Of a stretch of 64,000 bases of DNA, positions 2,354-41,315 are shown piece after piece (the stretch's first letter is position 1; each line of letters begins with the position of its first letter). The translations under genes and the position numbers were made by a program. The DNA lies in contig PFBV01000002.1 of assembly GCA_002778465.1 (NCBI GenBank), positions 2,312 to 66,311 on the forward strand, read 5' to 3'. Under the pieces are notes generated by a model. The model ran no database searches, was not told where the DNA came from, and saw only the letters and a program-made list of their open reading frames with translations. This DNA is from Candidatus Magasanikbacteria bacterium CG10_big_fil_rev_8_21_14_0_10_36_32 (GTDB lineage: Bacteria; Patescibacteriota; Patescibacteriia; Magasanikbacterales; GWA2-37-8).

Positions 2354-2369
2354 TGATACACTATAATAT

Positions 2370-2759
2370 ATGTTTGGAAAAAATAAGAAAATTAAAAACG
2401 TGTTAATTGTAGAGGATGATGCTTTGTTATCGCAAGTTTTAGGTAAAGCTTTTTCTGCCGCTGGTTTTGATGTAACCGGATTAACAGAGGGAATAAATGT
2501 GGTTTCTACGACAAAAAAAATAAAACCGGCAGCGATTTTGTTGGATTTAGTTTTGCCTGGTTTGGACGGGTTTACTGTTTTAAAAAATTTAAAATCCGAT
2601 AAGGCAACCGCTTCAATTCCAGTGATTGTTATTTCCAATTTGGGAGAGGCGGCTGATATAAAGTCGGTTATGGCGTTGGGAGCTGTTGAATATTTTATCA
2701 AGGCCAATACTCAAATGGAAAAAATAATAAAATTCACGCAAAAAATAATTAAAGATTGA
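2370..2759 (+). CDS. Single-domain (CheY-like) response regulator receiver
   Basis: 129 aa. Acidic pocket VLIVEDD, phospho-acceptor Asp in ILLDLVLPG, conserved Ser (VISNL) and Lys (FIKAN). No output domain. Confidence 0.85.
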   Translation: MFGKNKKIKNVLIVEDDALLSQVLGKAFSAAGFDVTGLTEGINVVSTTKKIKPAAILLDLVLPGLDGFTVLKNLKSDKATASIPVIVISNLGEAADIKSVMALGAVEYFIKANTQMEKIIKFTQKIIKD

Positions 2760-2764
2760 TTTCT

Positions 2765-3157
2765 ATGGCGGGTAAAAAATTAAAAGAAGTTTTGTTGGTG
2801 GTGGAAGATGATGAAATTTTGTTGAGAGCGTTATATTTGATGTTTAACAGTGGGAAATATACCATCGCCACAGCCACTGATGGAGAAACAGCTTTGAAAA
2901 TGGCTGAACGGATAAAACCCGATATGGTTTTATTGGATTTATTGATGCCAAAAATGAATGGCTTTGAATTTCTGAAAGTGTTTAAAGCGCATGATGAATT
3001 AAAAAAAATACCAGTGATTGTTTTGTCTAATTTAGGTGACAGTGACAGTAAGGAAAAAGCAAAAGCATTGGGCGCGATTGATTATTTCGTAAAAGCAAAT
3101 ATTAATTTAACTTCATTGGCAGATAAAATTAAACAAATTTTAAGCCAAAAAACATGA
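2765..3157 (+). CDS. Single-domain response regulator receiver
   Basis: ATG at 2765 (the ORF-track start 2756 is TTG and overlaps the upstream stop). VVEDDE, VLLDLLMPKMNG, VLSNL and FVKAN receiver motifs. No output domain. Confidence 0.85.
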   Translation: MAGKKLKEVLLVVEDDEILLRALYLMFNSGKYTIATATDGETALKMAERIKPDMVLLDLLMPKMNGFEFLKVFKAHDELKKIPVIVLSNLGDSDSKEKAKALGAIDYFVKANINLTSLADKIKQILSQKT

Positions 3158-3975
3158 AAATTAAATGGCTCAATTTAGTTCTATGGTTAACGAATAAAGT
3201 TTATACTTTAAAAAAGAACTTGGTTGAGAGGACGGGACTTATTATTATTGTAACAGTGATAAAACTGTTAATTTTGGAAGTTGTATTGGCAATTATTTCA
3301 TTGCCACTTTATTTGGGTCTTAAAACTAAAACAACTGCCGTTTATTTGGCAGAAAAAAGCGGTTTTGGGCAGGTGGCTTTTGATTATCGTTTGCGTCGGC
3401 TGTTAACTTTAACTGGAGTTGGTGTTATTTTTTTAATTTGGACAGTAAAATTAATTTTGATTATTTCCGTACCCCGCGTTTATGGCCAGTTGCAATTATA
3501 CAAAGTCGTGAATTTTCAATCCGGCACGGGCTTGTCGCAACAGTTGATTAAAACTGAAACAGATATCCAAACCGCCAAAATTTCCAATAAAATTATTGTG
3601 CCAGTGATTGAAAATGTCACAAAAACAGGGATGGACAGTTATGCAGTATCCGGCTCAGGACAATCATTTTCCACGGTGGCAGTTATGCTAACCGGACAAC
3701 AAACAATAATTTATACCATTCAAGCTGATAATAATGGTTATTGGACAATGATTCACAATCAAAAGAATTTTAGGCTGAATGATGGAAATCATTCATTATT
3801 AGCGTTTACTTATGATAAAAAAACTGGGCAGCGCAGCGATATTTCTCCGGAACAGTTCTTTAAAGTTAAGACATCATTGATAGATCGTTTAGTGAAAAAC
3901 ATAGATACCCTGACTAATTGGTCGGTGGTTATTGTAATTTTATTGGGATTATTTTTAACCATCCTAACAATATGA
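3154..3975 (+). CDS. Membrane protein with Ig-like beta domain and C-terminal TM anchor; short paralog of the downstream giant protein
   Basis: ATGA overlap with the upstream stop. The N-terminus (IKWLNLVLWLTNKVYTLKKNL ... EVVLAIISLPLYLGL) aligns by eye with the giant protein N-terminus (ISWLKIFFKLSGRIFELKQKL ... EIVFVFISLPLYFAV). The C-terminal part (ADNNGYWTM...LNDGNHSLLAF + TM helix) resembles the giant protein C-terminus (ADNQGNWHV...LSSGEHTVYAV + TM helix). Confidence 0.6.
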   Translation: MKIKWLNLVLWLTNKVYTLKKNLVERTGLIIIVTVIKLLILEVVLAIISLPLYLGLKTKTTAVYLAEKSGFGQVAFDYRLRRLLTLTGVGVIFLIWTVKLILIISVPRVYGQLQLYKVVNFQSGTGLSQQLIKTETDIQTAKISNKIIVPVIENVTKTGMDSYAVSGSGQSFSTVAVMLTGQQTIIYTIQADNNGYWTMIHNQKNFRLNDGNHSLLAFTYDKKTGQRSDISPEQFFKVKTSLIDRLVKNIDTLTNWSVVIVILLGLFLTILTI

Positions 3976-6900
3976 TGATTAGTTGGTTAAAAATATTTTT
4001 TAAACTTTCCGGGCGGATTTTTGAATTGAAACAAAAATTATCCCAAACTGACAGTTGGATAAAATCTTTGCCTTACGCTTTCCTTTTGATTTTAGACGAA
4101 ATAGTTTTTGTTTTTATTTCTTTGCCGTTGTATTTTGCCGTGCCGCCCAAAAAAGTTCAAGAAAAAGGAATTTTATTTCCTTCAGCCGAACCGGAAACCG
4201 AAAGAATGAAAATGTTTTTTATCAGAAGAAAAATAAGTTTAATTGCTTTTATCACCGCATTGGGAATGTTAGTTTTAAAATTTTTGGTAATCGGCGGTAT
4301 TTCTTTTTATTTGATGGGCGGGCAATTGCTTTTGGCTGCCACTCAAGATTGGCTATTTACCGTCCCTGGCGATTATGCTTATGACAGTTCAAAAATTGAA
4401 TTTGTTGGAGGGATTGCCAGATTGAAAAATTTGGGAACAACGGTTACAGGCAGTACCACTAATGCTAATTTTAATACCAATGCTACTGGCTGGACTTATG
4501 CTGATTGGGATCAAGGCGGTGGTGAGGCGAATGTAGTTGGAACTTATGTGGCATCAGGGGGAAATCCAGGCGGATTTGTTCAAATTAATTTTCCAGTTGG
4601 TAAAAGCGATGAGTTTGGCGGATATTGGCGTCAAGGTTTTGCAATCACGGAAAATAATCCAACCGCAACCCTCAGTTTTGATTGGTCAATAACCGCTTTT
4701 GACAATACTCCCGCCCCAGTCACATTTAAACTTTATGCTTTCATAGATACAGGAACAGGTGTTCCGGTTATTGGTCAAGAAGTTTGGAAATCAGAAGAAA
4801 TTACCGCAACAAGCGCTTGGGTTTCTATGACAAATTTAAATATTTCTTCAAAAGTTACGGCCGCTGGCACTTATTATTTAAAAATTGCGGTATGGTTGGA
4901 AACCCCAAATAACAACACAGGTCCTTTTACGCTTGGTTACGATAATGTCATAGTCAATTGGTCAAAAACTACGATTGTTTATGATTCTAATCGTCCGACA
5001 ATTATACCAAACAATTCTTTAACACCGGTCAATCCGGCGATTTGGAGTTCTTTTACAGAAACAGCTACAAAAAACGGAGGAGAAATTTATTATCAGTTAT
5101 CGGCTGATAATGGTTCTACTTGGAACTATTGGAATGGTTCGTCTTGGATATCCGCCGGCGCGTCTAATTATAATACCGCCATTGTTGTTAATAATAATAT
5201 TGCCGGTTTTTCTACCAGCACCAACAAAATAAAATGGAAAGCTTTTTTGGAAAGCAATGGCAGTCAACAAGTTAGTTTAAGCAAGGTTTCCATCGGCTAT
5301 ACGGAAAATTCCGCTCCCAGTATTTCTGAAGTAGTTCCTGTTCAGCAGACAGATAAAGGCCAAGTTTATATTTCTTATAATTTAACTGATGTTGAAAGCG
5401 ACCCCTCCAGTTTAATTACTTATGAATATTCTTTGACGGGCGCTTTTTCCGGGGAACAGGTGACAATGATAGCGTCCACTACTAATCCAATGCACAATGG
5501 TGTGTCCGGTTTGTCGGCTTCTCCGTCTGGCATCTCGCATATTTTTGTTTGGGACGGAATTATTAATTTGCCCAATGTTTACAACACTAGTACTTATGTT
5601 CGTTTGCGCGCCAATGACGGTATCGCAAGTGGTGTTTATGTCACTTCTTCAGCTATTACGATTGATTATGTAGCACCGGTTATTAGTAATTTATCTGTTA
5701 CGCAAAATTCCGGCAGTGCTAATTTTGATATTTCTTATGATTTATTTGATAACACTTCTGATAATATAAATATTGTTTTAGAAATCTCTGATGATGGCGG
5801 TTTGACTTGGGTTGTGCCGACTGTGTCATCAGTCGGAGATTTGGGTTCCAGTGTTACAGCCGGTATCGGAAAAGTAATTACTTGGAATGCCGGAGTTGAT
5901 TATCCGGCTCATCAAGTTTCCAATATGCAAGTTCGTCTTTTGGTTAAAGATAAATATCAAAATCAAAGCGTTTATTTTAATTCAGTCAATTTTGAATTAG
6001 ATACTTTGGCGCCGGTGGCTGCAATTACAGTTGATTTAATGGCTCAGCCAAATGCCGGCGATACCGCAGTTTTAATTTTTGGTTCTTTTATTGAAACAAA
6101 TCCTAATTATAACAATTTTTTTGTTGGAGTAAACAATGGAGATTATGGTTCGGCCACAGTCGGTGATAGTAATACAATTTCTCCTTCTGCCCAGTTGGTT
6201 GCTACCGGTGTAACCTTAACTGGCGCTGATTATATTGGTAAAGCAAAGATTGCTCACACTGATGATTTTGGTTTTTCAACTGATAATGAAAATTTTTCTC
6301 CCAATAGTTCATATAAATATGTAAAACCTTATACTCCACCGGCGCCGACAGTAGGTAATCCGGCAGAAGGGTCGTTAGATGTCACTATCAACAAATATTC
6401 TTCTGAAGCTGATGGATTAGAATATTTAGTTTTTGAGAATACCCAATCAAAATATATTCAAGGCGATGGTTTATTAAGTGATAGTCCTGTTTGGTTGTCA
6501 TCAGGAACAATAACTGTAATCGGCTTGTCTGATCCTTTGTCGCAATATATTTTTAAAACAAAATCTCGCAACAATAGCGATGCGGCACATACTCTAACCA
6601 GTGAGAGTGAATGGTCGTCCGGCGCGTCTACTGATTATCAATCACCATCCGTAACAATCAATTCCGTTGCACAGACTATTAATGGAACTAAATATGTGAC
6701 AGTTGATTATGTTGGTATTGATTTTCAGAATGCTCAGAATAATCTGGTAGTATATGAATATTCCACCGATGGTTTTGGTTGGATGACAATGACGGAAAAA
6801 GTTGGTGTAGATTCCAACGGTGTAAGCGGTTTAAGTTTTTCTTCCGGCGGAACGGCTTTCAAATTCGCGTGGGATGTTGGAAACGATTTGTTTTTAACCG

Positions 6901-9683
6901 AAGATTCCACTGTTTATGTTCGTCTTCAATCCAACGACTCTATTAACAGTAGTAATCTATCTGTTTCGTCCGCTTTTTTTGTGGATACGGCCGGACCAAT
7001 AATTTCCAATATTAATGTTAGTCAAGCAACTTCTTCCAATAATATTATTATTAATTATGATTTAACAGATACTGCCGGAGCTGATAATTTTATTGAATTA
7101 TTAATCTCTGATGATAGTGGCAGTTCTTATGTTGTAAGCGTGTCTGCGGTTACCGGCGACATTGGCGAAGGTGTCAGTTCCGGTATTGGAAAAGAAATTA
7201 TTTGGAACGCTGGGACGGATTTTAACGGACAAGAGCAGTCTGATATGCGGATAAAAATCCGTGCTAAAGATAGATATCAAAATCAGGGAGATTTTACAGA
7301 ATCATCTGATTTTCTTTTAGACACCAAAGGGCCAATTGTTAGTGATGTAAATGCGGTTCAATCAAGCAGTACCGTGTTAATAAATTATACTTTATCTGAA
7401 AATGTCGGTTTAGTTGTGTTTGAGGTGTCTGATGACAGTGGATTAACTTGGGTGGTATCCACCAGCAGTGTCAATGGTGATATTGGCGCCGATCAATTGT
7501 CCGGTTTAAAAAATTTCCAGTGGAATGCCAAAATTAATTTTAATGATCAAGAACAAAACGATGTGATGGTTCGTATTAGGGCAACTGATTATTTTAATAA
7601 TGTGGGCGATTATGTTTCGTCGGCTATTTTTTCTTTAGATACTAAACCTCCGGTTATAAGCAATATTACCGCTAATCAAACTCTGAATACAAAAGATTTT
7701 TCATTTAGTTATGAATTATCCGATGCTTCAGCCACAGCCACCATAGTATTGGATATTTCTTCCAATAGCGGTTTGGATTGGAATGTGGCGACTAGTACTC
7801 TCTCTGGAGATTCGGGAGATAATATTACCATGGGTGTTAAAAGTTTAATTTGGAATGCTGGTACGGATTTCAATGATCAGGAGAGTAATGTTATGCGTTT
7901 ACGTTTTCGTGCCACTGATGCTTGGGGTAATGAAAGTTTATTTTTTGAATCATCCGATTTTTCAGTGGATACAGCCGCTCCATCTGGTTTGTCGGAATTA
8001 ACCAAATATAGCATTACTGCAACTTCAGTGACATTAAATTGGTCATCCGGAGTAAATGATTCAAATTTTAATCATTATGAACTGTGGTATGGCGCGAATC
8101 AAAATGATGTTTTAAACAGAGCTGGTTCTGCGGACAAGTGGGATTCATTGGATGATGTTGATTTGAATAATATTACTACAATTTCTACAATTATTTCAGG
8201 AACAAGTTTTATTACTACTAAATATATAAAAATTTGGGCGGTTGATAATTATGGCAATGAATCATCGGCGCCGGATATTTCAGTAATTTATATTCCGCCG
8301 ACAGTGACCTATGATTTAATAGTGCAGGCGCCTACCGGTTCAGGCTCAATTAATCCGGCAATTGGCACTCATACATATAGTAAAGGAACCAATGTAGAAA
8401 TTACCGCTACTCCGGATAGTGGTTGGAATTTTGGTGGTTGGATTTTGGATGATTTATCAGGAGGCAATACAAATCCATTAACTTTAATAATGAATGCCGC
8501 GCATACAATTGGCGCTGTATTTAGTGAGGAAACCGTATCTGTTCCTGAAAAACAAGCGCCATCAGGCGGCGCGCCATTAGTTGTGATTGAGGCAACAGAT
8601 ACTACTCCGCCAACCGCGCCGATTTTAACGCCGGTTGCCGGACCACTGTCTTCAACCAGGGTAAAAATTTCCGGTTTAGCCGAACCTGGTTCAAAACTTT
8701 TTTTATACGATAAGGAAAGTCTGGTGGGACAATTAAGTTCTTTGGTTGGTAACAATGGAAGATTTGAACAAACTTTTGTTTTTAATGAAGGTGAACATAT
8801 TTTAACTTCCAAGGCGGTTGACACCAAAGGAAATCTTAGTCAGATTTCAGAATCAATTACATTTGTGATTGATTTAACTCCGCCGGATGCGCCGCAAATT
8901 TTATCTCCGAAAGAAAACAGTGTTTTATTGGCTAATGAATTAGTTTTGGTTGGTTTATCCGAACCGTTAACCGTTATGGAAATTAATTTAAGAGAAAATA
9001 TTTACAATACTGTCGCCAACGAAAGAGGAGTTTGGCAATTTAACATCTTTAATGTTACTGAAATTATACAAGGACGCCAGACAGTGACTGTACGAGCTAA
9101 AGATGCGGCTGGAAATATTAGCCGGCCTGTAACTTGGATAGGTACAGTAACAGTAGTCACGACCACTGGTGCTATTTATCCGATTCAAATTTTACCACCG
9201 GAAATAATTTCTCCGACTCCGTTGGCGCCGGCATCAATAATTCGTGAAGTTAACCAAGCAATTGAGACCACAGCTATAACGACTCCGTCAGTGGTCAGTG
9301 TTGAATTTTCCGGAGCCGATGACATTATTAGTTTTGCCGGCAAAGCTAAACCCGATGAAGAAGTGATAATTTATATTCATAGTAATCAGGCGGTAGTTTA
9401 TCGTACTGTGGCGGATAATCAAGGTAATTGGCATGTTCATCATTCACAAAATGAATTGGAATTATCCTCCGGTGAGCACACGGTATATGCGGTTGGCATT
9501 AACAGTGAAACAAATCTTAAAAGTCCGCCAAGTTTGATAGGGACATTTATTATTGAAAAAAATTGGTGGGTTAATATTTATAGGCATTTTAATTTTACCT
9601 CAACTTTAATTACCATTGCTGTTTTATTGATGGTTATGTCGTGGTTGTATTGGTTACGCCGTCGGGAAACAGTTAAAATTTAA
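3972..9683 (+). CDS. Giant (~1,903 aa) membrane-anchored, repeat-rich surface protein (adhesin-like)
   Basis: Likely start is ATG 3972 (ATGA overlap with the upstream stop); the ORF-track start 3918 lies inside the upstream gene. Architecture: two N-terminal TM segments, then a CBM/galactose-binding-like region (WTYADWDQGGG...NVIVNW). About six ~110-aa modules share ISN(L/I)xVxQ...(I/V)SDD(G/S)G(L/S)(T/S)W...(I/F)xWNAGxD...(V/I)R(L/I)xAxD...DTxxP, at nt ~5311-6005 and ~6650-7975. These are followed by an FN3-like domain (VTLNWSS...YELWYG), an InlB-B-repeat-like domain (GWNFGGWILD), Ig-like domains (DTTPPTAP.., DLTPPDAP..) and a C-terminal TM plus basic tail (WLYWLRRRETVKI). Confidence 0.8.
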   Translation: MMISWLKIFFKLSGRIFELKQKLSQTDSWIKSLPYAFLLILDEIVFVFISLPLYFAVPPKKVQEKGILFPSAEPETERMKMFFIRRKISLIAFITALGMLVLKFLVIGGISFYLMGGQLLLAATQDWLFTVPGDYAYDSSKIEFVGGIARLKNLGTTVTGSTTNANFNTNATGWTYADWDQGGGEANVVGTYVASGGNPGGFVQINFPVGKSDEFGGYWRQGFAITENNPTATLSFDWSITAFDNTPAPVTFKLYAFIDTGTGVPVIGQEVWKSEEITATSAWVSMTNLNISSKVTAAGTYYLKIAVWLETPNNNTGPFTLGYDNVIVNWSKTTIVYDSNRPTIIPNNSLTPVNPAIWSSFTETATKNGGEIYYQLSADNGSTWNYWNGSSWISAGASNYNTAIVVNNNIAGFSTSTNKIKWKAFLESNGSQQVSLSKVSIGYTENSAPSISEVVPVQQTDKGQVYISYNLTDVESDPSSLITYEYSLTGAFSGEQVTMIASTTNPMHNGVSGLSASPSGISHIFVWDGIINLPNVYNTSTYVRLRANDGIASGVYVTSSAITIDYVAPVISNLSVTQNSGSANFDISYDLFDNTSDNINIVLEISDDGGLTWVVPTVSSVGDLGSSVTAGIGKVITWNAGVDYPAHQVSNMQVRLLVKDKYQNQSVYFNSVNFELDTLAPVAAITVDLMAQPNAGDTAVLIFGSFIETNPNYNNFFVGVNNGDYGSATVGDSNTISPSAQLVATGVTLTGADYIGKAKIAHTDDFGFSTDNENFSPNSSYKYVKPYTPPAPTVGNPAEGSLDVTINKYSSEADGLEYLVFENTQSKYIQGDGLLSDSPVWLSSGTITVIGLSDPLSQYIFKTKSRNNSDAAHTLTSESEWSSGASTDYQSPSVTINSVAQTINGTKYVTVDYVGIDFQNAQNNLVVYEYSTDGFGWMTMTEKVGVDSNGVSGLSFSSGGTAFKFAWDVGNDLFLTEDSTVYVRLQSNDSINSSNLSVSSAFFVDTAGPIISNINVSQATSSNNIIINYDLTDTAGADNFIELLISDDSGSSYVVSVSAVTGDIGEGVSSGIGKEIIWNAGTDFNGQEQSDMRIKIRAKDRYQNQGDFTESSDFLLDTKGPIVSDVNAVQSSSTVLINYTLSENVGLVVFEVSDDSGLTWVVSTSSVNGDIGADQLSGLKNFQWNAKINFNDQEQNDVMVRIRATDYFNNVGDYVSSAIFSLDTKPPVISNITANQTLNTKDFSFSYELSDASATATIVLDISSNSGLDWNVATSTLSGDSGDNITMGVKSLIWNAGTDFNDQESNVMRLRFRATDAWGNESLFFESSDFSVDTAAPSGLSELTKYSITATSVTLNWSSGVNDSNFNHYELWYGANQNDVLNRAGSADKWDSLDDVDLNNITTISTIISGTSFITTKYIKIWAVDNYGNESSAPDISVIYIPPTVTYDLIVQAPTGSGSINPAIGTHTYSKGTNVEITATPDSGWNFGGWILDDLSGGNTNPLTLIMNAAHTIGAVFSEETVSVPEKQAPSGGAPLVVIEATDTTPPTAPILTPVAGPLSSTRVKISGLAEPGSKLFLYDKESLVGQLSSLVGNNGRFEQTFVFNEGEHILTSKAVDTKGNLSQISESITFVIDLTPPDAPQILSPKENSVLLANELVLVGLSEPLTVMEINLRENIYNTVANERGVWQFNIFNVTEIIQGRQTVTVRAKDAAGNISRPVTWIGTVTVVTTTGAIYPIQILPPEIISPTPLAPASIIREVNQAIETTAITTPSVVSVEFSGADDIISFAGKAKPDEEVIIYIHSNQAVVYRTVADNQGNWHVHHSQNELELSSGEHTVYAVGINSETNLKSPPSLIGTFIIEKNWWVNIYRHFNFTSTLITIAVLLMVMSWLYWLRRRETVKI

Positions 9684-9687
9684 TGAT

Positions 9688-12411
9688 ATGATGGTTATAG
9701 ATGAAAAACAAAAATTAAAATTAATTAAATTTTATCAATCTATATCTCATTGGTTGGGGATTGTTGTTTTAACGATTGGCGGGGTGGTGTTGGTGGGCTG
9801 GATTTTTGACATTCAAATATTAAAAAGCGTTTTACCTGGTTTGGTTGCAATGAAGGCCAATACCGCCGTTTGTTTTGTTTTATCAGGTTTTACTTTAATT
9901 TTATTACAGGAAAAACGTATTGGAACGGTTCAACGAATAATAGGGGGAATATTTTCATTTTTGGTTTTATTGTTAGGTGTTTTAACTTTGACTGAATATA
10001 TTTTTGGATTTAATTTTTACATTGATCAGTTGTTATTTAAGGAATTACCTGATGCTGTTTTAACTTTTTCACCGGGGCGAATGGCTGCCAATACCGCATT
10101 TAATTTTTTTCTTATTGGTGTTGCTTTGTTGACAGTCAGTTTAAGCAGGAAGTCAAAAATAATATTTGCAAATATTTTAGTTGTAATAGTCGGAATAGTT
10201 TCTTTATTGGCTTTAATCGGCTATATTTTTGGCGTATCGGTATTTTATCAAGGCATAGCATTGTATACGGCCATGGCTTTGCATACCGCGATTGCTTTTT
10301 TATTTATCGCAATCAGTATTTTTTTTATCAGGTTTGACCATGATTCAGTTCCTGTTTTAGGAGCCGGTGGAACCGGAGGCGCGGTTGTTAGACGTTTATT
10401 GCCGGTGATTGTAATAGTGCCAATAGTGTTAGGTTTATTGTTTCGTTTAGGCGAACAAAGAGGCTATTATAATAATGATTTTGAACTTTCTTTTCTCACC
10501 ACCTTTATTATTGTTATTTTGATGATATTTTTTTGGTTTAACGCTAAAAATATTAATAAAAATGAAATTTTGCAAGCCGAGAGTATTTTAAAATTAGAAG
10601 AATCAGAAAAAAAATATCGGGAAATTTTTAATAACATTCAGGATATCTTTTTTGAAGTTAATATGAATGGAATTGTTGTTGATATATCCCCTTCAATTGA
10701 ACAAATTACTAAATACAAAAGAGATGATCTGATTGGCCGAGACATAGGTCAATTATATGCTAAAAAAGAAGAAAGAAATGATATTTTAAAAACACTGGCT
10801 AAAATCGGAAAAGTTTATGATGTGGAAGCTGATTTTATTGATAAAGATGGTGCCAAATTAACCGGTTCAATGGTAGCCAGATTGATTAAAAACGAAAAAG
10901 GTGTTCCTTTGAGAATTGTCGGTACCATTCGCGATGTTACTGCCCGCCGGAGAGCCGAGGATGAATTGAAATTTAAGAATATTATTTTAGATACACAGCA
11001 AAATACTTCTTTAGATGGAATTTTGATAGTTGACGAAGAAGGAAAAATAATTTCTTTTAATCGACGTTTCGTGAAAATGTGGAATATAACGGATCAAGTG
11101 TTGGAATCAAAGTCAGATGAGCTCGCTTTACAATCGGTGCTTGACAAATTGGTAAATCCTGAAGAATTTTTGTCGCGGGTTAAATTTTTATATGAACATA
11201 AAAATGAAAAAAGTCGTGAAGAAATCTCATTAAAGGATGGAAGAATTTTTGACCGTTATTCTTCGCCAATGTTGTCTTTGGAAAAAGAGTATCTTGGCAG
11301 AGTTTGGTATTTTAGTGATGTGACGGAAAATCGCCAAGCCTCCAGTATATTAAAAAAATCAGAAGAAAAATATGCCGCTTTGGTGGAAAATAGCAATGAT
11401 GGCGTTTTAATTTTACAGGATGAGGTGATTAAATTTGCTAACCGAGCTATGTTGAATATGTTTGGTCTTACAGAAGAAAGGGTTATCGGTCGTTCTTTTT
11501 TAGACTTTACCGATGAACCGTCAAAAAAAATTGCTGCTGATAAATATAAAAAACGAATGAAAGGTGAAAAAATTGCTTCGCGGACGGAATTAAATTTAAT
11601 TCATAGCAGTGGACGGACATTTTCCGCGGAAATCAATGCGGCATTGATTTATCATGAAGGCCGGCCGGCCGATATGGCAACCGTGCGCGATATCAGCAAG
11701 GCAAAAGAAATAGACCGTATGAAATCAGAATTTGTGGCTGTTACTTCGCACCAATTAAGGACTCCTTTGACCGGCATAAAATGGTTTACCGAGTTGTTGA
11801 TAAAAGATAAAAAGCATAAATTATCAAAAGAACAAAAAGATTTTATTCAGCAAATTTCCGTCAGCAATGAGCGGTTAATAAGATTAGTTGATGATTTGTT
11901 AGATGTTTCACATATAGAAACCGGTCGTAAATATAATGTTGTTTTAAAGTCTGAAAGTTTACATGATGTGATTCAAGAGGTGGTGGATAGTCAAAATCTT
12001 TCGGCCAAGAAAAAAGATGTTAAAATAATTTGTCCGCGTTGCCGTGAAAAATTGATTATGCCGATTGATCGGGAAAAAATCCGACAGGTATTTTCCAATT
12101 TAGTCAGTAATGCTATTAAGTATTCTCCGGCTAAAAGCGTTATAGAAATAGGTAGAGAAAAAAAACACGAAGAGATTATTATTTTTATTAAAGATCACGG
12201 AGTGGGAATACCCAAACATCAACAGAAACGAGTTTTTGAAAAATTTTTCCGGGCGGACAATGTATCCACTACTGAAACAGGCACAGGGCTTGGTTTGTAT
12301 ATTGCTAAAGCAATTGTAGAAGGACATGGTGGGCGAATTTGGTTTGAATCAATAGAAAAAAAGGGTACGACTTTTTATGTCGCTTTGCCTATAAAAAATA
12401 AATTAATTTAA
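9688..12411 (+). CDS. Sensor histidine kinase: polytopic membrane N-domain, three PAS-like regions, HisKA and HATPase_c
   Basis: ~8 hydrophobic helices in the first ~290 aa. PAS-like segments (YREIFNNIQDIFFEV.., ILDTQQNTSLDGILIVDEEG.., YAALVENSNDGVLILQDE..). H-box SEFVAVTSHQLRTPL, N-box NLVSNAIKYSP, G1 DHGVGIP, G2 GTGLGLYIAK. Confidence 0.9.
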   Translation: MMVIDEKQKLKLIKFYQSISHWLGIVVLTIGGVVLVGWIFDIQILKSVLPGLVAMKANTAVCFVLSGFTLILLQEKRIGTVQRIIGGIFSFLVLLLGVLTLTEYIFGFNFYIDQLLFKELPDAVLTFSPGRMAANTAFNFFLIGVALLTVSLSRKSKIIFANILVVIVGIVSLLALIGYIFGVSVFYQGIALYTAMALHTAIAFLFIAISIFFIRFDHDSVPVLGAGGTGGAVVRRLLPVIVIVPIVLGLLFRLGEQRGYYNNDFELSFLTTFIIVILMIFFWFNAKNINKNEILQAESILKLEESEKKYREIFNNIQDIFFEVNMNGIVVDISPSIEQITKYKRDDLIGRDIGQLYAKKEERNDILKTLAKIGKVYDVEADFIDKDGAKLTGSMVARLIKNEKGVPLRIVGTIRDVTARRRAEDELKFKNIILDTQQNTSLDGILIVDEEGKIISFNRRFVKMWNITDQVLESKSDELALQSVLDKLVNPEEFLSRVKFLYEHKNEKSREEISLKDGRIFDRYSSPMLSLEKEYLGRVWYFSDVTENRQASSILKKSEEKYAALVENSNDGVLILQDEVIKFANRAMLNMFGLTEERVIGRSFLDFTDEPSKKIAADKYKKRMKGEKIASRTELNLIHSSGRTFSAEINAALIYHEGRPADMATVRDISKAKEIDRMKSEFVAVTSHQLRTPLTGIKWFTELLIKDKKHKLSKEQKDFIQQISVSNERLIRLVDDLLDVSHIETGRKYNVVLKSESLHDVIQEVVDSQNLSAKKKDVKIICPRCREKLIMPIDREKIRQVFSNLVSNAIKYSPAKSVIEIGREKKHEEIIIFIKDHGVGIPKHQQKRVFEKFFRADNVSTTETGTGLGLYIAKAIVEGHGGRIWFESIEKKGTTFYVALPIKNKLI

Positions 12412-12416
12412 ATTAT

Positions 12417-12794
12417 ATGCACAAAATTCTTATCGTGGAGGATGATAATATTTTGGCTCAAGCCATTTATACGGCTGTTAGGCGAGCCGGTTTTTCCGCT
12501 GAAGTGGCGGTTGATGGCGAGGATGCTTTAAAAAAAATGAAAAAAATAAAACCGGACGTGGTACTGCTTGATTTAATTTTACCAAAACGTTCCGGTGAGG
12601 ATGTTTTGGGAGCAATGAAACAGGATGAAACATTAAAAGAAGTACCTGTTTTGGTAATTACCGTCAAAGGCGACAAAGAAACTATCAGCCAGTGTGTAAA
12701 AATGGGTATTCGTGGATATTTAATCAAAGCGCATTATACTTTACAAGAAATAATCAATCAAATTAAAAAAGTGATTGCGGAAACAAAAAAATAA
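12417..12794 (+). CDS. Single-domain response regulator receiver
   Basis: 125 aa. ILIVEDDN, VVLLDLILPKRSG, VITVKG and LIKAH motifs. No output domain. Confidence 0.85.
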   Translation: MHKILIVEDDNILAQAIYTAVRRAGFSAEVAVDGEDALKKMKKIKPDVVLLDLILPKRSGEDVLGAMKQDETLKEVPVLVITVKGDKETISQCVKMGIRGYLIKAHYTLQEIINQIKKVIAETKK

Positions 12795-12796
12795 TT

Positions 12797-14278
12797 ATGA
12801 AGCCGGTGAAATTTTTTGAAAAAGTCGCCGGTTCCAAAAGCAAAACGTTTATTTCGTTTTGCTTTTGTTTTATTATGGGGGTTGGTTTTTTTTCTTTTAT
12901 TGAAATATCAGGAACAAAACTTTATTACTTATTAATTTGCGGTTTTGTAATTTTATTTGGTTTGATATTTTGGTGGAAAAATAAAGTGGCGCGGTTGATT
13001 TTATTGTGTTTATTGTTTGTAGTGTTGGGCAGTATGCGTTTTGTTGGTGAAATGATGTCGTCTCAGGCGGTAACAAATAATGATGGTCGGTTATTTTATG
13101 GAATTGTGGACGAAGAACCCAATTTTAAAATTGATAATGCTGAATATATTGTATCAACGGAATTTAATGAAAAAGTCTTAATCCGCCTTCCTCTTTATCC
13201 GCAATATAATTATGGCGATCGTTTAATGATTGATTGTCTTCCGGCACTTCCACAAAATTATCCTTCCGGCATATTTGATTATCGTCGTTATTTATCCAAT
13301 CAAGGAATTTTTTCGGTTTGTTTTAATCCTCCAGTCACAAAAATCGGAATTGATGAAGGTAATTTATTAAAATCAATTTTATTAAAAACCAAGAATATGG
13401 TCAGCGAACAGATAAACAGATTATTTGTTGAACCAGAAAGCAGTTTGTTGGCAGGTTTATTATATGGAGGACGCAGCGGTTTGCCTAAAGAATTGTCTGA
13501 TAGTTTTCGTCGGACAGGTTTGAGTCATATTGTGGCGGTATCAGGTTATAATATTTCCATTATTTCCGTGATATTTTTAAATATTTTAATTGTTCTTGGT
13601 TTTTCTCGTCCAAAAGCTTTTTGGTTGGCGATAATTGGTTTAGTTTCTTTTGTAATATTTACCGGCGCTTCCGCTTCAGTTGTCCGTGCCGGTATTATGG
13701 GATCATTGGTGTTGATTGCCGAAAAAGTTGGTCGGTTATCGGATGCCGGACGGTTGTTGTTTTTAGCCGGCGCTTTAATATTGCTGGTTAATCCGCGTTT
13801 ATTAGTTTGGGACGCAGGTTTTCAGTTGTCTTTTTTGGCTACTTTGGGTTTAATTTATTTAACGCCACATTTATGGTTTTCCAAAAGAAAAATTCCGGAA
13901 TTATTTTTTAACATAGTCAACCCGACTGTGGCGGCGATTATCGCTACCGCGCCGTTGATTATGTTTCAATTTGGACAGTTATCTTTGTCCGCTTTACCGG
14001 CTAATGTTTTAGTAATTTGGATGATACCATGGCTAATGTTGTTTGGATTTTTATCATTGTCTTTGGGGTGGATTTTTTATCCCTTGGGACAAATAATCGC
14101 GTGGTTGACAGGTTTTGGTTTAAAATATGTTATAATGGTGACAAGTTGGTTTTCTGCCCGAACCTGGGCGGCGGTTGAAATGAATATTTCTTGGTGGATG
14201 ATGTTAATAATGTATTTGTTAATTGTTTTATTTTTTTATGCCAAAAGTAAAAATTTTATCATCGGTCGCCGGATATGA
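12797..14278 (+). CDS. comEC: ComEC/Rec2-family DNA-uptake channel, N-terminal part (OB/DUF4131-like plus Competence domain), lacking the MBL domain
   Basis: 493 aa polytopic membrane protein. Contains the competence-domain signature region LLAGLLYGGRSGLPKELSDSFRRTGLSHIVAVSGYNISI...FTGASASVVRAGIMG. It ends without a beta-lactamase domain. Confidence 0.8.
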   Translation: MKPVKFFEKVAGSKSKTFISFCFCFIMGVGFFSFIEISGTKLYYLLICGFVILFGLIFWWKNKVARLILLCLLFVVLGSMRFVGEMMSSQAVTNNDGRLFYGIVDEEPNFKIDNAEYIVSTEFNEKVLIRLPLYPQYNYGDRLMIDCLPALPQNYPSGIFDYRRYLSNQGIFSVCFNPPVTKIGIDEGNLLKSILLKTKNMVSEQINRLFVEPESSLLAGLLYGGRSGLPKELSDSFRRTGLSHIVAVSGYNISIISVIFLNILIVLGFSRPKAFWLAIIGLVSFVIFTGASASVVRAGIMGSLVLIAEKVGRLSDAGRLLFLAGALILLVNPRLLVWDAGFQLSFLATLGLIYLTPHLWFSKRKIPELFFNIVNPTVAAIIATAPLIMFQFGQLSLSALPANVLVIWMIPWLMLFGFLSLSLGWIFYPLGQIIAWLTGFGLKYVIMVTSWFSARTWAAVEMNISWWMMLIMYLLIVLFFYAKSKNFIIGRRI

Positions 14279-14843
14279 TTTGTCTGCCGCCGATTATGAT
14301 AAAAAAGAAAAATATTTAAACAGTTTTGAAAAAAATAAAATTTGGCTATTGTTGGGATATTTATCTGGAAAAAAAATTTTAGATGCCGGAACAGGAACTG
14401 GACGTTTAGCTGTTGAAATGTCAAAAAATGGCGCGGAAGTAACCGCTCTTGATGTGTCGTCAGAAATGTTAAAACAGTTGTCGCGTAAAAGTAATAAAAT
14501 AAAAACCATGATTGGCGATGCTGAATGTTTGCCTTTTGACAAAGAGATTTTTGATTTGGTGACAGCCGCTTTTTTAATCGTTCATTTTAAGGATCCTTCT
14601 CGTTTTTTTGACGAAGCTTATCGTGTATTGAAAGATGGTGGAAGATTATTGGTGACAAATATTAATCAAAAAGAACCGCCAGAAATAAAAACTAAGCAAG
14701 GAGTTATAAAAATTGAATCGTTTTATCATCGCCCGGAAAAAATCAGGGAGATTTTACAGTCATTGGCTTTTACCATTGAAAAAGAAATTATTGTTAAAGA
14801 AGGGGAGAATTGGATAAATCAGATAATAGTAGCTAAAAAATAA
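14238..14843 (+). CDS. Class I SAM-dependent methyltransferase
   Basis: Motif I ILDAGTGTGRLA, acidic post-I (ALDVS), and LKDGGRLLV. ATG at 14238 (track start 14223 is TTG). The 5' end overlaps the end of the ComEC channel gene. Confidence 0.75.
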   Translation: MPKVKILSSVAGYDLSAADYDKKEKYLNSFEKNKIWLLLGYLSGKKILDAGTGTGRLAVEMSKNGAEVTALDVSSEMLKQLSRKSNKIKTMIGDAECLPFDKEIFDLVTAAFLIVHFKDPSRFFDEAYRVLKDGGRLLVTNINQKEPPEIKTKQGVIKIESFYHRPEKIREILQSLAFTIEKEIIVKEGENWINQIIVAKK

Positions 14844-14846
14844 TTC

Positions 14847-15123
14847 ACCCCGTTAGAGATATTTATGGTTTATATTTATTTAATGCAGAGCAAGAAAGAT
14901 AATCTTTGGTATACAGGTGCTACTAGAGATTTAAAAAAACGTTTTAAAGAGCATAATGATGGGAAAGTAAAAGCAACAAGGGATAGAAGACCTTTTGTGT
15001 TAATATATTATGAAGCTTGTTTGAATGAACACGATGCTTTTACTCGTGAAAAATATTTAAAGTCAGGAATGGGAAAACGTTATCTTAAAAATCGTTTAAA
15101 ACGTTTTTTATCTCTAACGGGGT
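14847..15123 (+). mobile_element. GIY-YIG ORF cassette bracketed by a perfect 15-bp inverted repeat
   Basis: ACCCCGTTAGAGATA at 14847-14861 and its exact reverse complement TATCTCTAACGGGGT at 15109-15123 enclose the 86-aa ORF. The cassette exactly fills the spacer between the methyltransferase stop and the ComEC-MBL start. Confidence 0.45.
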
Positions 15124-15125
15124 AA
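14865..15125 (+). CDS. Small GIY-YIG nuclease-superfamily protein
   Basis: 86 aa. VYIYLMQS...LWYTGATRDLKKRFKEHNDGK...PFVLIYYE fits the GIY-(x10)-YxG..R..E..N layout. Paralog of the ORF at 47285-47527. Confidence 0.8.
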   Translation: MVYIYLMQSKKDNLWYTGATRDLKKRFKEHNDGKVKATRDRRPFVLIYYEACLNEHDAFTREKYLKSGMGKRYLKNRLKRFLSLTG

Positions 15126-15128
15126 ATT

Positions 15129-15986: not shown

Positions 15987-15997
15987 TATATTACTAG

Positions 15998-16029
15998 AAA
16001 CGCTTCCATAATGAAGCGTTTTAATTTTT
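15998..16029 (+). terminator. Rho-independent terminator-like hairpin
   Basis: AAACGCTTC-cataat-GAAGCGTTT followed by a T-rich tract. Confidence 0.55.
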
Positions 16030-16055
16030 GACTTAATTTAATTTATTTTTTATAT

Positions 16056-27898: not shown

Positions 27899-28030
27899 AT
27901 TGAAAAGTTATTCACATTTTTAGCTATTCCAAGCATTCGTATTGTGTTATACTAATATAGTAATTGAACAGTTTATGATTGAGCCAAAAAAATATTTTTT
28001 CTCAAACAAATTGGCTTGATTTTGATATTT

Positions 28031-36127: not shown

Positions 36128-36140
36128 AAAATAAATTAAA

Positions 36141-36178
36141 AAATCCCCCAACAATTTAGTTGGGGGATTTGTTTTTTT
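36141..36178. terminator. Bidirectional rho-independent terminator
   Basis: AAATCCCCCAAC-aattta-GTTGGGGGATTT followed by GTTTTTTT, with an A-run upstream that serves the minus strand. Confidence 0.8.
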
Positions 36179-36222
36179 AAAGGACAAACTTATCTGTGGA
36201 ACTCCACAGTTCTGAGATGACC

Positions 36223-36747: not shown

Positions 36748-36779
36748 CGTTTCCTCCTTTTTGTTTCAGATTTTGGTCG

Positions 36780-36793
36780 TTTGAATATTCAAA
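36780..36793. promoter_or_regulatory. Perfect 14-bp palindrome in the 5' UTR of the minus-strand lipoprotein gene (operator candidate)
   Basis: TTTGAATATTCAAA lies between the predicted -10 and the RBS. Confidence 0.3.
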
Positions 36794-36804
36794 GAACTTT
36801 AATA

Positions 36805-36833
36805 GTTTTAGCATATTTAAAGATTTTTGTCAA
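36805..36833 (-). promoter_or_regulatory. Sigma70-like promoter for 36747..36223
   Basis: On the minus strand: TTGACA, 17 nt spacer, TAAAAC. Confidence 0.4.
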
Positions 36834-41311: not shown

Positions 41312-41315
41312 AATT

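What the first reader, a model, noticed from the sequence alone, without database searches (positions are those of the whole stretch)
2370..12794. Giant surface protein embedded in a signalling operon: three stand-alone receiver domains and a PAS histidine kinase, with no DNA-binding output
Seen in sequence: the order is RR-RR-(membrane paralog)-(1,903-aa surface protein)-HK-RR. All junctions are between -4 and +6 nt, implying translational coupling and co-transcription. All three regulators are ~125-133 aa receiver-only proteins with intact phospho-acceptor residues. The kinase has ~8 TM helices and three PAS-like regions. No HTH or enzymatic output domain is encoded nearby.

Inference: this may be a phosphorelay or phosphate-sink arrangement whose output is protein-protein, possibly acting on the adhesin, on ComEC (the next gene downstream), or on pili, rather than transcriptional. 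Physical embedding of an adhesin-like giant gene inside a two-component cassette is unusual.
Basis: partly seen in the sequence, partly recalled or inferred. Interest (0 to 1): 0.6.

Follow-up and report, generated by a model that had tools for sequence, protein, structure and literature searches.

The report
Conserved receiver–giant surface protein cassette
In a group of tiny uncultured groundwater bacteria (Patescibacteria), two small phosphorylation-switch proteins are always encoded directly in front of a giant surface protein anchored in the membrane at both ends and of its 273-residue miniature copy, usually with a sensor kinase beside them. This points to an undescribed way of coupling cell signalling to host contact, but no experiment has tested it.

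Summary
The window (Candidatus Magasanikbacteria, Crystal Geyser) encodes RR1, RR2, a 273-aa membrane protein (TM273), a 1,903-aa surface protein, an 8-TM/3-PAS histidine kinase and RR3. Junctions are -4 to +5 nt, all three receivers have intact phospho-sites, and no output domain is present.

The arrangement is not a by-product of a compact genome. In 51 metagenome loci (48 distinct variants) plus 13 further loci, the order RR1-RR2-TM273-giant is essentially invariant while the flanking genes differ. A PAS kinase lies within 10 kb in 18 of 19 evaluable loci. These kinases share an unusual H-box (His-Gln) although their input domains differ, and the kinase can sit on either side of the core.

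TM273 is a miniature paralog of the giant. Both share an N-terminal membrane module with an invariant Glu in TM1 and Lys in TM2, and a C-terminal Ig domain plus TM anchor. The giant's first ectodomain is a CBM-like jelly roll that also occurs in giant type IV pilin-like proteins.

ComEC adjacency is local synteny only. My preferred mechanism, in which the receivers dock on the cytoplasmic face of the two membrane paralogs, is inferred and not shown. I found no published description of this cassette.

The parts
2370..2759 (+). RR1: a 129-aa receiver-only response regulator (D16/D17, D59, S89, K111).
   Evidence: Pfam Response_reg scores 65.8 bits with no other domain. The orthogroup is 45-72% identical across cassettes. 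Phospho-site residues are >=90% conserved in 39 sequences.
2765..3157 (+). RR2: a 130-aa receiver-only response regulator (D15/D16, D58, S88, K110). It is a paralog of RR1 (about 40% identity) and the best-conserved protein of the cassette.
   Evidence: Pfam Response_reg scores 81.9 bits. The orthogroup is 58-79% identical. It lies immediately upstream of TM273 in 44 of 44 evaluable loci.
3154..3975 (+). TM273: a 273-aa membrane protein that is a miniature paralog of the giant. It has an N-terminal amphipathic helix, TM1 (invariant E42), a basic loop with a beta-hairpin, TM2 (invariant K99), a disordered linker, one Ig-like domain and a C-terminal TM anchor.
   Evidence: No Pfam or NCBIfam family matches. 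The AF2 model has pLDDT 72.6. The Ig domain resembles the BIg domains of Bap, SiiE and MpIBP. Paralogy to the giant is shown. The family comprises 69 clusters at 90% identity, of 241-275 aa (nearly all 270-275). A profile search of 50%-identity representatives gave 66 proteins at E<=1e-30, about 45 of them full-length matches of 255-285 aa. E42, S49, P51, R81/R82 and W96 are invariant, and K99 at least 90% conserved, down to 21% identity.
3972..9683 (+). Giant double-anchored surface protein of 1,903 aa.
   Evidence: It has 8 hydrophobic-segment-free ectodomain flanked by anchors: hydrophobic segments lie at residues 37-55, 84-112 and 1877-1895, and the C-terminal tail RRRETVKI is basic. Homologs are 44-53% identical and fall into two length classes. 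A giant follows TM273 in 42 of 42 evaluable loci.
3972..4316 (+). N-terminal membrane module of the giant (residues 1-115): a helix, TM1 with conserved E43, a basic loop, and TM2 with conserved K103.
   Evidence: AF2 predicts helices H3-25, H29-56 and H77-114. E43 and K103 are >=90% conserved in 62 sequences and in 35 N-termini.
4335..5306 (+). CBM-like beta-jelly-roll (residues 122-335) followed by an Asp-box beta domain (residues 343-445).
   Evidence: The AF2 model has pLDDT mostly above 90 here. Foldseek against the PDB finds CBM11, CBM61, CBM4 and the C-terminal domains of phage tailspikes at E 3e-5 to 1e-3. The region is 35-54% identical to repeated modules in 1,100-1,450-aa prepilin-type proteins of Patescibacteria.
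5307..9275 (+). Stalk of about 13 beta-sandwich domains. It includes roughly 110-aa Asp-box (SxDxGxTW) repeats, an FN3-like domain, Flg_new_2 (8328-8528), Big_6 (8631-8843) and Big_13 (8979-9128).
   Evidence: Asp-box motifs lie at residues 377, 606, 1046 and 1153. Most stalk segments have no Pfam match.
9276..9683 (+). C-terminal Ig-like domain, TM anchor and basic tail, paralogous to the C-terminal half of TM273.
   Evidence: BLASTP gives E 2e-7. The TM helix followed by a basic tail is conserved in 22 complete giants.
9688..12411 (+). Histidine kinase of 907 aa. It has 8 TM segments (residues 22-283), three PAS domains (319-419, 443-551, 560-667), HisKA (678-746) with His688 in the H-box SHQLRTPLTGIKW (nt 11749-11751), and HATPase_c (794-903).
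   Evidence: Pfam hits are and hydropathy. The last 240 aa are 51-60% identical to other cassette kinases. The H-box has Gln at His+1 in all cassette-type kinases, against 1 of 61 generic PAS-HKs.
12417..12794 (+). RR3: a 125-aa receiver-only response regulator (D9/D10, D52, T82, K104). It is the 'window-type' variant, also found in L059/L070, L060 and L067.
   Evidence: Pfam Response_reg scores 80.0 bits. It is only 28-38% identical to the other RR3 type. Similar RR3 sequences occur in L067 and L070.
12835..12877 (+). Terminator-like hairpin (13-bp stem, T-run) 38 nt into the annotated ComEC ORF. It may mark the 3' end of the cassette transcript. An in-frame ATG at 12875 could be the true ComEC start.
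   Evidence: This is the best terminator-like site in 1800-16200, and the sequence was read. It is a consensus match only and was not tested.

Best explanation
**What it is.** This is a co-inherited signalling-plus-surface module. By the source names of its members it is found in Magasanikbacteria, Uhrbacteria, Buchananbacteria and unclassified Patescibacteria.

**Shown.**
- The core is four genes in fixed order: RR1, RR2, TM273 and the giant.
- A dedicated PAS histidine kinase, with an orthologous catalytic core and interchangeable input domains, and a third receiver are usually attached on one side or the other.

**Inferred mechanism.**
- The kinase reads a cytoplasmic or envelope cue and sets the phosphorylation state of the CheY-like receivers.
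- RR1 and RR2 have no output domain. I propose they act by docking on the conserved cytoplasm-facing parts of the two paralogous membrane proteins: the N-terminal amphipathic helix and the basic loop next to the Glu/Lys-bearing TM hairpin.
- This would change the conformation, assembly or activity of the double-anchored, lectin-tipped giant ectodomain. Host or surface contact would then be switched post-translationally ('inside-out'), not by transcription.
For: - **Invariant order.** RR2 lies upstream of TM273 in 44/44 loci, RR1 upstream in 37/39, and the giant downstream in 42/42, across 48 distinct variants. Median gaps are 4-19 nt.
- **Different flanks.** The same order holds with LeuA/DAHP synthase, helicase/sortase, ABC/MFS, SMC and MreB neighbours.
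- **Kinase linkage.** A kinase lies within 10 kb in 18 of 19 evaluable loci, although CPR genomes average only 0.289 HK per 100 genes (PMC10805038).
- **Kinase orthology.** The catalytic cores are 51-60% identical and share the SHQLRTPLTGIKW H-box, while the inputs differ: 8-TM, 5xPAS, dCache-HAMP-PAS and HAMP-PAS.
- **Receiver competence.** The receivers are output-less with conserved phospho-sites.
- **Paired paralogy.** There are two paralogous receivers (about 40% identity) and two membrane proteins sharing a paralogous N-terminal module.
- **Constrained membrane module.** It is the most constrained part of the family. K20, E42, S49, P51, R81/R82 and W96 are invariant, and K99 at least 90% conserved, down to 21% identity.
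- **Binding role for the ectodomain.** It carries a CBM-like jelly roll and Ig-like domains resembling those of adhesins.
Against: - No receiver-membrane protein contact was tested. The tools predict single chains only.
- The topology of the N-terminal module is ambiguous. Both the N-terminal helix and the TM1-TM2 loop are basic, so which segments face the cytoplasm is not settled.
- Gene order shows co-function, not who binds whom. The receivers could act on a target encoded elsewhere.
- One lineage (L014) has the core without a nearby kinase, and one (L036/L037) lacks RR1.
- Gln at His+1 may mean the kinase is a poor autokinase.
- I could not test whether RR1/RR2 orthologs also occur without TM273 and the giant.
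Confidence: 0.45

Rival explanations
1. **Outside-in sensing.** The double-anchored giant and TM273 would be the sensor, for example of tension or glycan binding on host contact. Their Glu/Lys TM module would change state and recruit, release or protect RR1/RR2. That would modulate phosphate flow from the kinase to RR3 or to another target. In this reading the membrane proteins are accessory sensors of a multi-component system, and RR1/RR2 act as connectors or phosphate sinks.
For: - Anchoring at both ends transmits force to the membrane.
- The TM helices carry invariant ionisable residues.
- Most cassette kinases have no extracytoplasmic domain of their own, so an external cue would need another receptor.
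- Three receivers per kinase fits a sink or branch layout.
Against: - Receiver domains receive information from kinases, and no mechanism is known for a membrane protein to signal through a free receiver.
- Some cassette kinases do have their own dCache/HAMP extracytoplasmic sensors.
- No contact between the kinase and the membrane proteins can be general, because most of the kinases are soluble.
Confidence: 0.2
2. **Output elsewhere.** The kinase and receivers would control another machine, most plausibly type IV pili (extension/retraction ATPases) or DNA uptake. The giant and TM273 would simply be co-expressed cargo of the same behavioural programme (attachment), not direct targets.
For: - PilB-PilC-pilin genes follow the cassette in L013, and a PilT-like ATPase follows it in L060.
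- Residues 120-450 of the giant are 35-54% identical to modules of giant prepilin-type proteins.
- Receiver-only proteins control pili in other bacteria (PilG/PilH; from my own knowledge).
Against: - T4P genes are adjacent in only 2 of about 20 loci.
- ComEC is adjacent only in loci that also share LeuRS synteny.
- The invariant partners of RR1/RR2 are TM273 and the giant, not pilus genes.
Confidence: 0.2
3. **Phosphatase-driven circuit.** Because of Gln at His+1, the kinase would be mainly a PAS-regulated phosphatase. The receivers would then be phosphorylated from acetyl-phosphate or by a kinase encoded elsewhere. The cassette would read metabolic state, not a kinase-sensed ligand. This modifies the best explanation and does not replace it.
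For: - The H-box SHQLRTP is present in all 21 cassette-type kinases, against 1 of 61 generic PAS-HKs.
- Thr at His+4 (the phosphatase motif position) is retained in most of them.
- L014 keeps the core without a nearby kinase.
Against: - HATPase_c is intact and strongly conserved (101.6 bits), which argues for ATP use.
- The role of the His+1 residue is recalled from the literature and was not tested here.
Confidence: 0.15
4. **No functional link.** The adjacency and tight junctions would simply reflect a compact, co-directional CPR genome.
For: - Almost all genes in the window are on the + strand.
- 23% of the other junctions are also <=5 nt.
- The tight spacing continues into ComEC.
Against: The order is conserved in 48 distinct variants at 40-52% protein identity, while the flanking genes differ completely.
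Confidence: 0.02

Closest known systems
Two-component systems with stand-alone (CheY/Spo0F/DivK-like) receivers
   Same: It has a HisKA/HATPase_c kinase with PAS inputs. The receivers have a full phospho-acceptor pocket and no output domain. The closest solved receivers are Spo0F, the PleD REC domain, DivK, RR468 and CheY.
   Different: - No family-specific model reaches its cut-off.
- There is no Hpt, CheA or flagellar partner.
- Two of the receivers are locked in gene order to two membrane proteins, not to the kinase.
- The kinase H-box has Gln instead of Glu/Asp after the phospho-His.
LapD-LapG-LapA control of a giant adhesin (Pseudomonas; from my own knowledge)
   Same: A cytoplasmic signalling input is proposed to control a giant Ig-repeat surface protein post-translationally through a membrane protein encoded beside it.
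   Different: - The signal there is c-di-GMP, not His-Asp phosphorylation.
- LapD is a HAMP-GGDEF-EAL receptor, and control works through a periplasmic protease and a type I secretion retention module.
- None of those components is present here.
- This giant is itself membrane-anchored at both ends.
PorX/PorY with PorL of the type IX secretion/gliding motor (from my own knowledge)
   Same: A response regulator acts by binding the cytoplasmic part of a small TM-hairpin membrane protein that carries a conserved membrane-embedded acidic residue.
   Different: - PorX has a PglZ output domain.
- PorL/GldL partners with PorM/GldM in a proton-driven motor.
- I found no homology between TM273 and these proteins: Pfam and NCBIfam returned nothing, and fold searches returned only Ig-like matches.
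Accessory membrane proteins of histidine kinases ('three-component' systems such as YycH/YycI-WalK and LiaF-LiaS; from my own knowledge)
   Same: Membrane proteins co-encoded with a two-component system may modulate signalling.
   Different: Those accessories contact a membrane kinase. Here most cassette kinases are soluble, and the conserved neighbours of the membrane proteins are the receivers.
Giant Ig-repeat adhesins (SiiE, Bap, MpIBP/LapA-type)
   Same: It has tandem beta-sandwich domains. The C-terminal Ig domain matches Bap, SiiE and MpIBP BIg domains. There is a Ca_tandemer-like repeat (45.9 bits, below the 50-bit cut-off).
   Different: - It lacks a T1SS signal, LPXTG motif and cleaved signal peptide.
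- It is anchored by an N-terminal TM module and a C-terminal TM helix.
- Its architecture and length classes are fixed, unlike repeat-number-variable adhesins.
- Its membrane-proximal domain is a CBM-like module shared with pilin-like proteins.

Membership tests
Two-component system (HisKA-type kinase plus receiver) | The kinase has a DHp domain with a phospho-acceptor His and a CA (HATPase_c) domain. | tested here: met
   HisKA scores 68.8 bits and HATPase_c 101.6 bits, both above cut-off. His688 lies in the H-box.
Two-component system (HisKA-type kinase plus receiver) | The receiver has an acidic pair, a phospho-acceptor Asp, a Ser/Thr and a Lys. | tested here: met
   All three receivers have these residues by direct reading. 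They are >=90% conserved in 39 RR1 and 44 RR2 sequences.
Two-component system (HisKA-type kinase plus receiver) | Phosphotransfer occurs from this kinase to these receivers. | not testable with these tools
   This needs in-vitro phosphotransfer profiling.
Two-component system (HisKA-type kinase plus receiver) | A canonical acidic residue (Glu/Asp) follows the phospho-His. | tested here: not met
   Gln occupies this position in all 21 cassette-type kinases. This is a departure in detail, not in fold.
Multi-step phosphorelay | An Hpt domain or protein sits between receivers. | tested here: not met
   No Hpt (PF01627) was found in the cassette or in any window ORF scanned up to 60.7 kb. The rest of the genome was not available.
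Chemosensory (Che/Pil-Chp) pathway | CheA-type kinase, CheW and MCP are present. | tested here: not met
   The kinase is HisKA/PAS type. No CheA, CheW or MCP domains occur in the window or in the related loci inspected.
LapD/LapG/LapA-type adhesin control | A GGDEF-EAL receptor, a DUF920 protease and a T1SS-secreted adhesin are present. | tested here: not met
   None of these domains is present.
Sortase- or T1SS-dependent giant adhesins | An LPXTG anchor or a C-terminal T1SS signal, plus an N-terminal cleaved signal peptide. | tested here: not met
   The C-terminus is a TM helix with a basic tail, and the N-terminus is an uncleaved TM module.
TM273/giant membrane-module family (defined here) | An N-terminal helix, TM1 (Glu), a basic loop (Arg-Arg) and TM2 (Trp...Lys), then an ectodomain ending in an Ig domain and a C-terminal TM helix. 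| tested here: met
   Both window proteins have all of these elements.
Carbohydrate-binding module (function of giant residues 122-335) | A beta-jelly-roll fold. | tested here: met
   The AF2 model has pLDDT above 90. Foldseek hits CBM11/61/4 and tailspike lectin-like domains at E 3e-5 to 1e-3 with TM-scores of 0.4-0.6 on the target.
Carbohydrate-binding module (function of giant residues 122-335) | Glycan binding. | not testable with these tools
   This needs glycan arrays or binding assays. The fold alone does not define a ligand.

The most novel reading that the evidence does not exclude
The cassette would be a bacterial 'integrin-like' adhesion receptor run by His-Asp signalling. CheY-like receivers would bind, depending on their phosphorylation state, to the conserved cytoplasmic face of a Glu/Lys-bearing TM module shared by a giant double-anchored, lectin-tipped surface protein and its miniature paralog. 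This would switch (or report) host attachment of an obligate episymbiont without any transcription factor. It would be a new output class for stand-alone receivers and a new control principle for giant adhesins.
Probability: 0.3. Interest if true: 0.85.

Novelty: new variant of a known kind. Interest (0 to 1): 0.62.

Why it matters
- **Host attachment is the open question for these organisms.** Patescibacteria/CPR are a large share of bacterial diversity and most are thought to live attached to host cells. How they decide to attach, feed or detach is essentially unknown.
- **They spend scarce regulators here.** They have very few regulators (about 0.3 kinases per 100 genes), yet one lineage dedicates a kinase and three receivers to a giant surface protein and keeps the arrangement fixed across deep divergence. 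That marks the module as central to their lifestyle.
- **It gives a concrete, testable target:** two receivers, two short cytoplasmic modules and one kinase core.
- **It bears on a long-standing two-component question.** What stand-alone receivers bind is largely unknown outside chemotaxis. A conserved receiver-membrane protein pairing would be a clean new example.
- **It defines new families.** The results define an unannotated protein family (TM273) and a kinase clade with a His-Gln H-box.

Tried and rejected
2. **Kinase homolog search.** The best non-self hits were 29-31% identical. The cassette kinases were missed by the word filter and were found only later through gene context. I therefore dropped the initial idea that the kinase is an orphan or laterally acquired.
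3. **Intramembrane sensing.** I considered that the 8-TM kinase reads the giant's TM helices. This cannot be the general mechanism, because the kinases of L008, L009, L013 and L015 have no TM segment.
4. **ComEC as target.** ComEC follows the cassette only where LeuRS precedes it, which is lineage synteny.
5. **Foreign origin of the giant gene.** Its higher GC and lower GC skew are shared by the second giant ORF at 28-36 kb, so they more likely reflect amino-acid composition. This is my inference.
6. **Promoter scan.** The count equals that of shuffled sequence and is not informative. One strong terminator-like hairpin was noted.
7. **Family libraries.** Pfam and NCBIfam give no match for TM273, the giant's N-terminal module or most stalk domains.
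8. **Fold searches of the TM273 model.** They returned only Ig/FN3 matches and no analog of the membrane module.
9. **Literature.** Six full-text searches found no description of this cassette.
11. **Reverse association test.** Checking whether RR1/RR2 occur without TM273 and the giant was not possible, because the collection scans and protein searches were exhausted.

Full report
**Source and layout**

Exact-match look-ups place the window in Candidatus Magasanikbacteria bacterium CG10_big_fil_rev (locus tags COU29_00435 to COU29_00445). The region reads as follows:
- LeuRS 47-2353
- RR1 2370-2759
- RR2 2765-3157
- a 273-aa membrane protein (here TM273) 3154-3975
- a 1,903-aa protein 3972-9683
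- a 907-aa histidine kinase 9688-12411
- RR3 12417-12794
- ComEC from 12797

Junctions inside the cassette are +5, -4, -4, +4 and +5 nt, and +2 nt to ComEC. The median is 3 nt, against 24.5 nt for the other 30 same-strand junctions of the window.

**Checking the observation**

- The three regulators contain only a receiver domain.
- The kinase has three PAS regions, HisKA and HATPase_c. Hydropathy gives eight TM segments in residues 22-283.
- The giant has only three recognised domains near its C-terminus (Flg_new_2, Big_6, Big_13).
- The phospho-acceptor pocket is intact in all three receivers.
- TM273 is a true paralog of the two ends of the giant.
- No HTH, Hpt or enzymatic output domain occurs in any ORF scanned up to 60.7 kb; four ORFs of 125-221 aa beyond that, and ORFs under 100 aa, were not scanned.

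**Is the linkage real?**

*First evidence, from homologs of the giant.* They exist in Magasanikbacteria, Uhrbacteria, Buchananbacteria and unclassified Patescibacteria at 44-53% identity. Their contexts show the same RR-RR-273aa-giant order in front of completely different neighbours:
- LeuA/DAHP synthase (L008)
- helicase and sortase (L009)
- ABC transporter and MFS (L014)
- chaperonin and PPDK (L015)
- SMC (L069)
- MreB (L071)

LeuRS and ComEC flank the cassette only in Magasanikbacteria-like loci (L012, L067).

*Second evidence, from a metagenome scan.* A scan seeded with a TM273 alignment returned 51 loci with 48 distinct TM273 sequences. I classified their ORFs with profiles built from seven cassettes. 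After correcting three filter artefacts, the counts were as follows:

| Relation | Loci |
|---|---|
| RR2 directly upstream of TM273 | 44 of 44 |
| RR1 upstream of RR2 | 37 of 39 |
| Giant directly downstream of TM273 | 42 of 42 |

- The two RR1 exceptions are one variant, L036/L037.
- Median gaps are 4 nt (RR1 to RR2), 19 nt (RR2 to TM273) and 4 nt (TM273 to giant).

The conserved core is therefore the four genes RR1-RR2-TM273-giant.

**The kinase and third receiver**

They are attached more loosely.
- They follow the giant in the window and in L008, L009, L012, L013, L015, L020, L031, L052, L059/L070, L067, L069 and L071.
- They precede RR1 in L039, L051, L060 and L061.
- The kinase is convergent in L068.
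- No kinase lies within 8 kb in L014.

That is 18 of 19 loci that can be judged on both sides. For comparison, CPR genomes average 0.289 kinases per 100 genes (PMC10805038, read).

The kinases are orthologous in their catalytic core. The last 240 residues are 51-60% identical. All 21 cassette-type kinases carry the H-box SHQLRTPLTG(I/V)KW, with Gln after the phospho-accepting His. Among generic PAS kinases with a recognisable H-box, the residue at that position is E in 46, D in 14 and Q in 1.

Their input modules differ:
- eight TM helices (window, L012)
- five PAS domains with no TM segment (L008, L009, L013, L031)
- dCache-HAMP-PAS (L060, L067)
- HAMP-PAS (L069)

RR3 comes in two types. The window's type recurs in L059/L070, L060 and L067.

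**The receivers**

RR1 and RR2 form separate orthogroups, 45-72% and 58-79% identical within each group and about 40% identical to each other. The acidic pair, the Asp, the Ser and the Lys are at least 90% conserved. The closest solved structures are generic: Spo0F, the PleD receiver, DivK, RR468 and CheY. No NCBIfam model reaches its cut-off.

**The membrane proteins**

*TM273.*
- It has no Pfam or NCBIfam match.
- It forms a family of very uniform length: 69 clusters at 90% identity, of 241-275 aa with nearly all at 270-275. A profile search of 50%-identity representatives gave 66 proteins at E<=1e-30, about 45 of them full-length matches of 255-285 aa.
- The AlphaFold model (pLDDT 72.6) shows an N-terminal helix (2-25), TM1 (30-55), a beta-hairpin in a basic loop (62-73), a long TM2 (76-109), a disordered linker, one Ig-like sandwich (150-238) and a C-terminal TM helix (242-272).
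- The Ig domain resembles the BIg domains of the giant adhesins Bap, SiiE and MpIBP.

*The giant.* It has the same N-terminal module and the same C-terminal Ig domain plus TM helix, followed by a basic tail in all 22 complete sequences examined. Both proteins are therefore anchored at both ends, with the ectodomain forming a loop.

*Conserved membrane residues.* A Glu in TM1 and a Lys in TM2 are conserved in giants (E43, K103). In TM273-like proteins only 21-30% identical, the Glu is invariant and the Lys at least 90% conserved. K20, S49, P51, the Arg-Arg pair before TM2 and W96 are invariant too.

*Topology.* The topology of the first two helices is ambiguous, because both the N-terminal helix and the loop are basic. 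The basic loop and the basic C-terminal tail argue that the large region is outside the cell.

**The ectodomain**

The model of residues 1-460 (pLDDT 88) shows a beta-jelly-roll at 122-335. Its best structural matches are carbohydrate-binding modules (CBM11, CBM61, CBM4) and the C-terminal domains of phage tailspikes (E 3e-5 to 1e-3). An Asp-box beta domain follows at 343-445.

This two-domain unit is 35-54% identical to units repeated in 1,100-1,450-aa proteins of Patescibacteria that begin with a prepilin-type methylation motif. The same putative binding module is thus displayed both on pili and on this membrane loop.

The rest of the ectodomain is a stalk of beta-sandwich domains. It includes roughly 110-aa Asp-box repeats, mostly without a Pfam model.

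Giant lengths fall into two tight classes, about 1,650-2,000 aa and about 3,140-3,260 aa. This looks like a fixed architecture and is unlike a repeat-variable adhesin.

**Mechanism**

*What is shown.*
- The four-gene core is co-inherited and tightly packed.
- A dedicated kinase clade accompanies it.
- The receivers are competent by sequence.
- The membrane pair shares paralogous modules that are highly constrained.
- The ectodomain looks like a binding module.

*What is inferred.* Receiver-only proteins act by binding partners, and the only invariant partners here are TM273 and the giant. There are two paralogous receivers and two paralogous membrane modules. I therefore favour direct, phosphorylation-dependent docking of RR1/RR2 on the cytoplasmic face of these modules. 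This would control the ectodomain from inside (confidence 0.45).

*Rivals.*
- The reverse flow of information, with the giant as a contact or tension sensor and the receivers as connectors or sinks (0.2).
- An output on type IV pili, with the giant only co-expressed (0.2). PilB-PilC-pilins follow the cassette in L013 and a PilT-like ATPase follows it in L060.
- A modifier in which the His-Gln kinase is mainly a phosphatase (0.15).
- Mere genome compaction, which the conservation data exclude (0.02).

**Comparison with known systems**

The parts are ordinary members of known superfamilies: a HisKA kinase, receiver domains and Ig-like repeats.

*What it works like.* The proposed working resembles three systems, all recalled from my own knowledge:
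- LapD-LapG-LapA, where a giant adhesin is controlled from the cytoplasm through a neighbouring membrane protein.
- PorX-PorL, where a regulator binds a TM-hairpin protein carrying a buried acidic residue.
- PilG/PilH control of pili.

*Why it is not a member of these.* It has no c-di-GMP domains, protease, T1SS, PglZ, CheA, CheW or MCP. Calling it a phosphorelay fails for lack of an Hpt domain.

Six literature searches found no description of this cassette, and every database name for TM273 and the giant is 'hypothetical' or 'Ig-like domain-containing'. I therefore rate it a new variant of a known kind: a two-component system whose conserved partners are a double-anchored giant surface protein and its miniature paralog.

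**Limits**
- There is no experimental or multimer evidence for any contact.
- Only the window, not the whole genome, could be searched for output regulators.
- The reverse association (RR1/RR2 without TM273) could not be tested.
- The taxonomic range rests on source names of a minority of sequences.

Noticed in passing
window 28016-46090 (+): A second giant ORF (2,703 aa, no Pfam hit) is followed by ORFs of 1,050, 343 and 395 aa without Pfam matches. Next come a PrgI-family (VirB3-like) protein (42464-42889) and a VirB4/TraG-type P-loop ATPase (43592-45463). This looks like a Gram-positive-type type IV secretion or conjugation-like cluster in a CPR genome.
   Followed up: no
window 11749-11751 (His688) and the kinases of L008-L071: All cassette-linked kinases have Gln instead of the usual Glu/Asp directly after the phospho-accepting His (SHQLRTPLTGIKW). 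Only 1 of 61 generic PAS kinases does. From memory, this residue is the catalytic base for autophosphorylation, so these kinases may be weak autokinases or mainly phosphatases.
   Followed up: partly
window 12835-12877 (+): A 13-bp-stem terminator-like hairpin with a T-run lies 38 nt inside the annotated ComEC ORF, and an in-frame ATG sits at 12875. The cassette transcript may end here, and ComEC may start 26 codons later than the longest ORF.
   Followed up: no
window 12797-15986 (+): ComEC is split. The DUF4131 and Competence domains lie at 12797-14278, and the metallo-beta-lactamase domain is a separate gene at 15129-15986. A class I methyltransferase (about 14238-14843) and an 86-aa GIY-YIG protein (14865-15125) lie between them. 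The same layout occurs in L011/L012. A second small GIY-YIG ORF is at 47165-47527.
   Followed up: no
window 4335-5306; proteins P0199-P0228: The CBM-like jelly roll plus Asp-box unit of the giant is repeated 2-3 times in very large (1,100-1,450 aa) prepilin-type proteins of Patescibacteria, at 35-54% identity. These would be giant pilins or pilus-tip proteins carrying the same module.
   Followed up: partly
L013 20586-25546; L060 16465-17655: In a 958-kb contig the cassette is followed by a fourth receiver and then PilB (MshEN+T2SSE), PilC (T2SSF) and pilin genes. In L060 a 396-aa PilT-like ATPase directly follows the giant.
   Followed up: partly
L067 18545-26702: One Magasanikbacteria-like locus carries, between the giant and RR3, a periplasmic NMT1/phosphonate-type binding protein, a dCache_1 protein, a HAMP-PAS kinase, a small PAS protein and a second multi-PAS kinase. 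Both kinases have the His-Gln H-box, so the kinase has duplicated with different inputs.
   Followed up: no
L036 4700-5430 and L037: This is the only variant lacking RR1. The roughly 700 nt upstream of RR2 is unusually GC-rich, with overlapping short ORFs on both strands, which may reflect an insertion or an RNA gene.
   Followed up: no
window 9688-10536; proteins P0015, P0054, P0059, P0091: The 8-TM input region of the window's kinase has no Pfam model. Full-length matches at 26-29% identity over 97-98% of the query occur in kinases of cyanobacteria (P0054, P0059), Archangium (P0091) and an unnamed ENA contig (P0015). It appears to be an unannotated, widespread membrane sensor domain.
   Followed up: no
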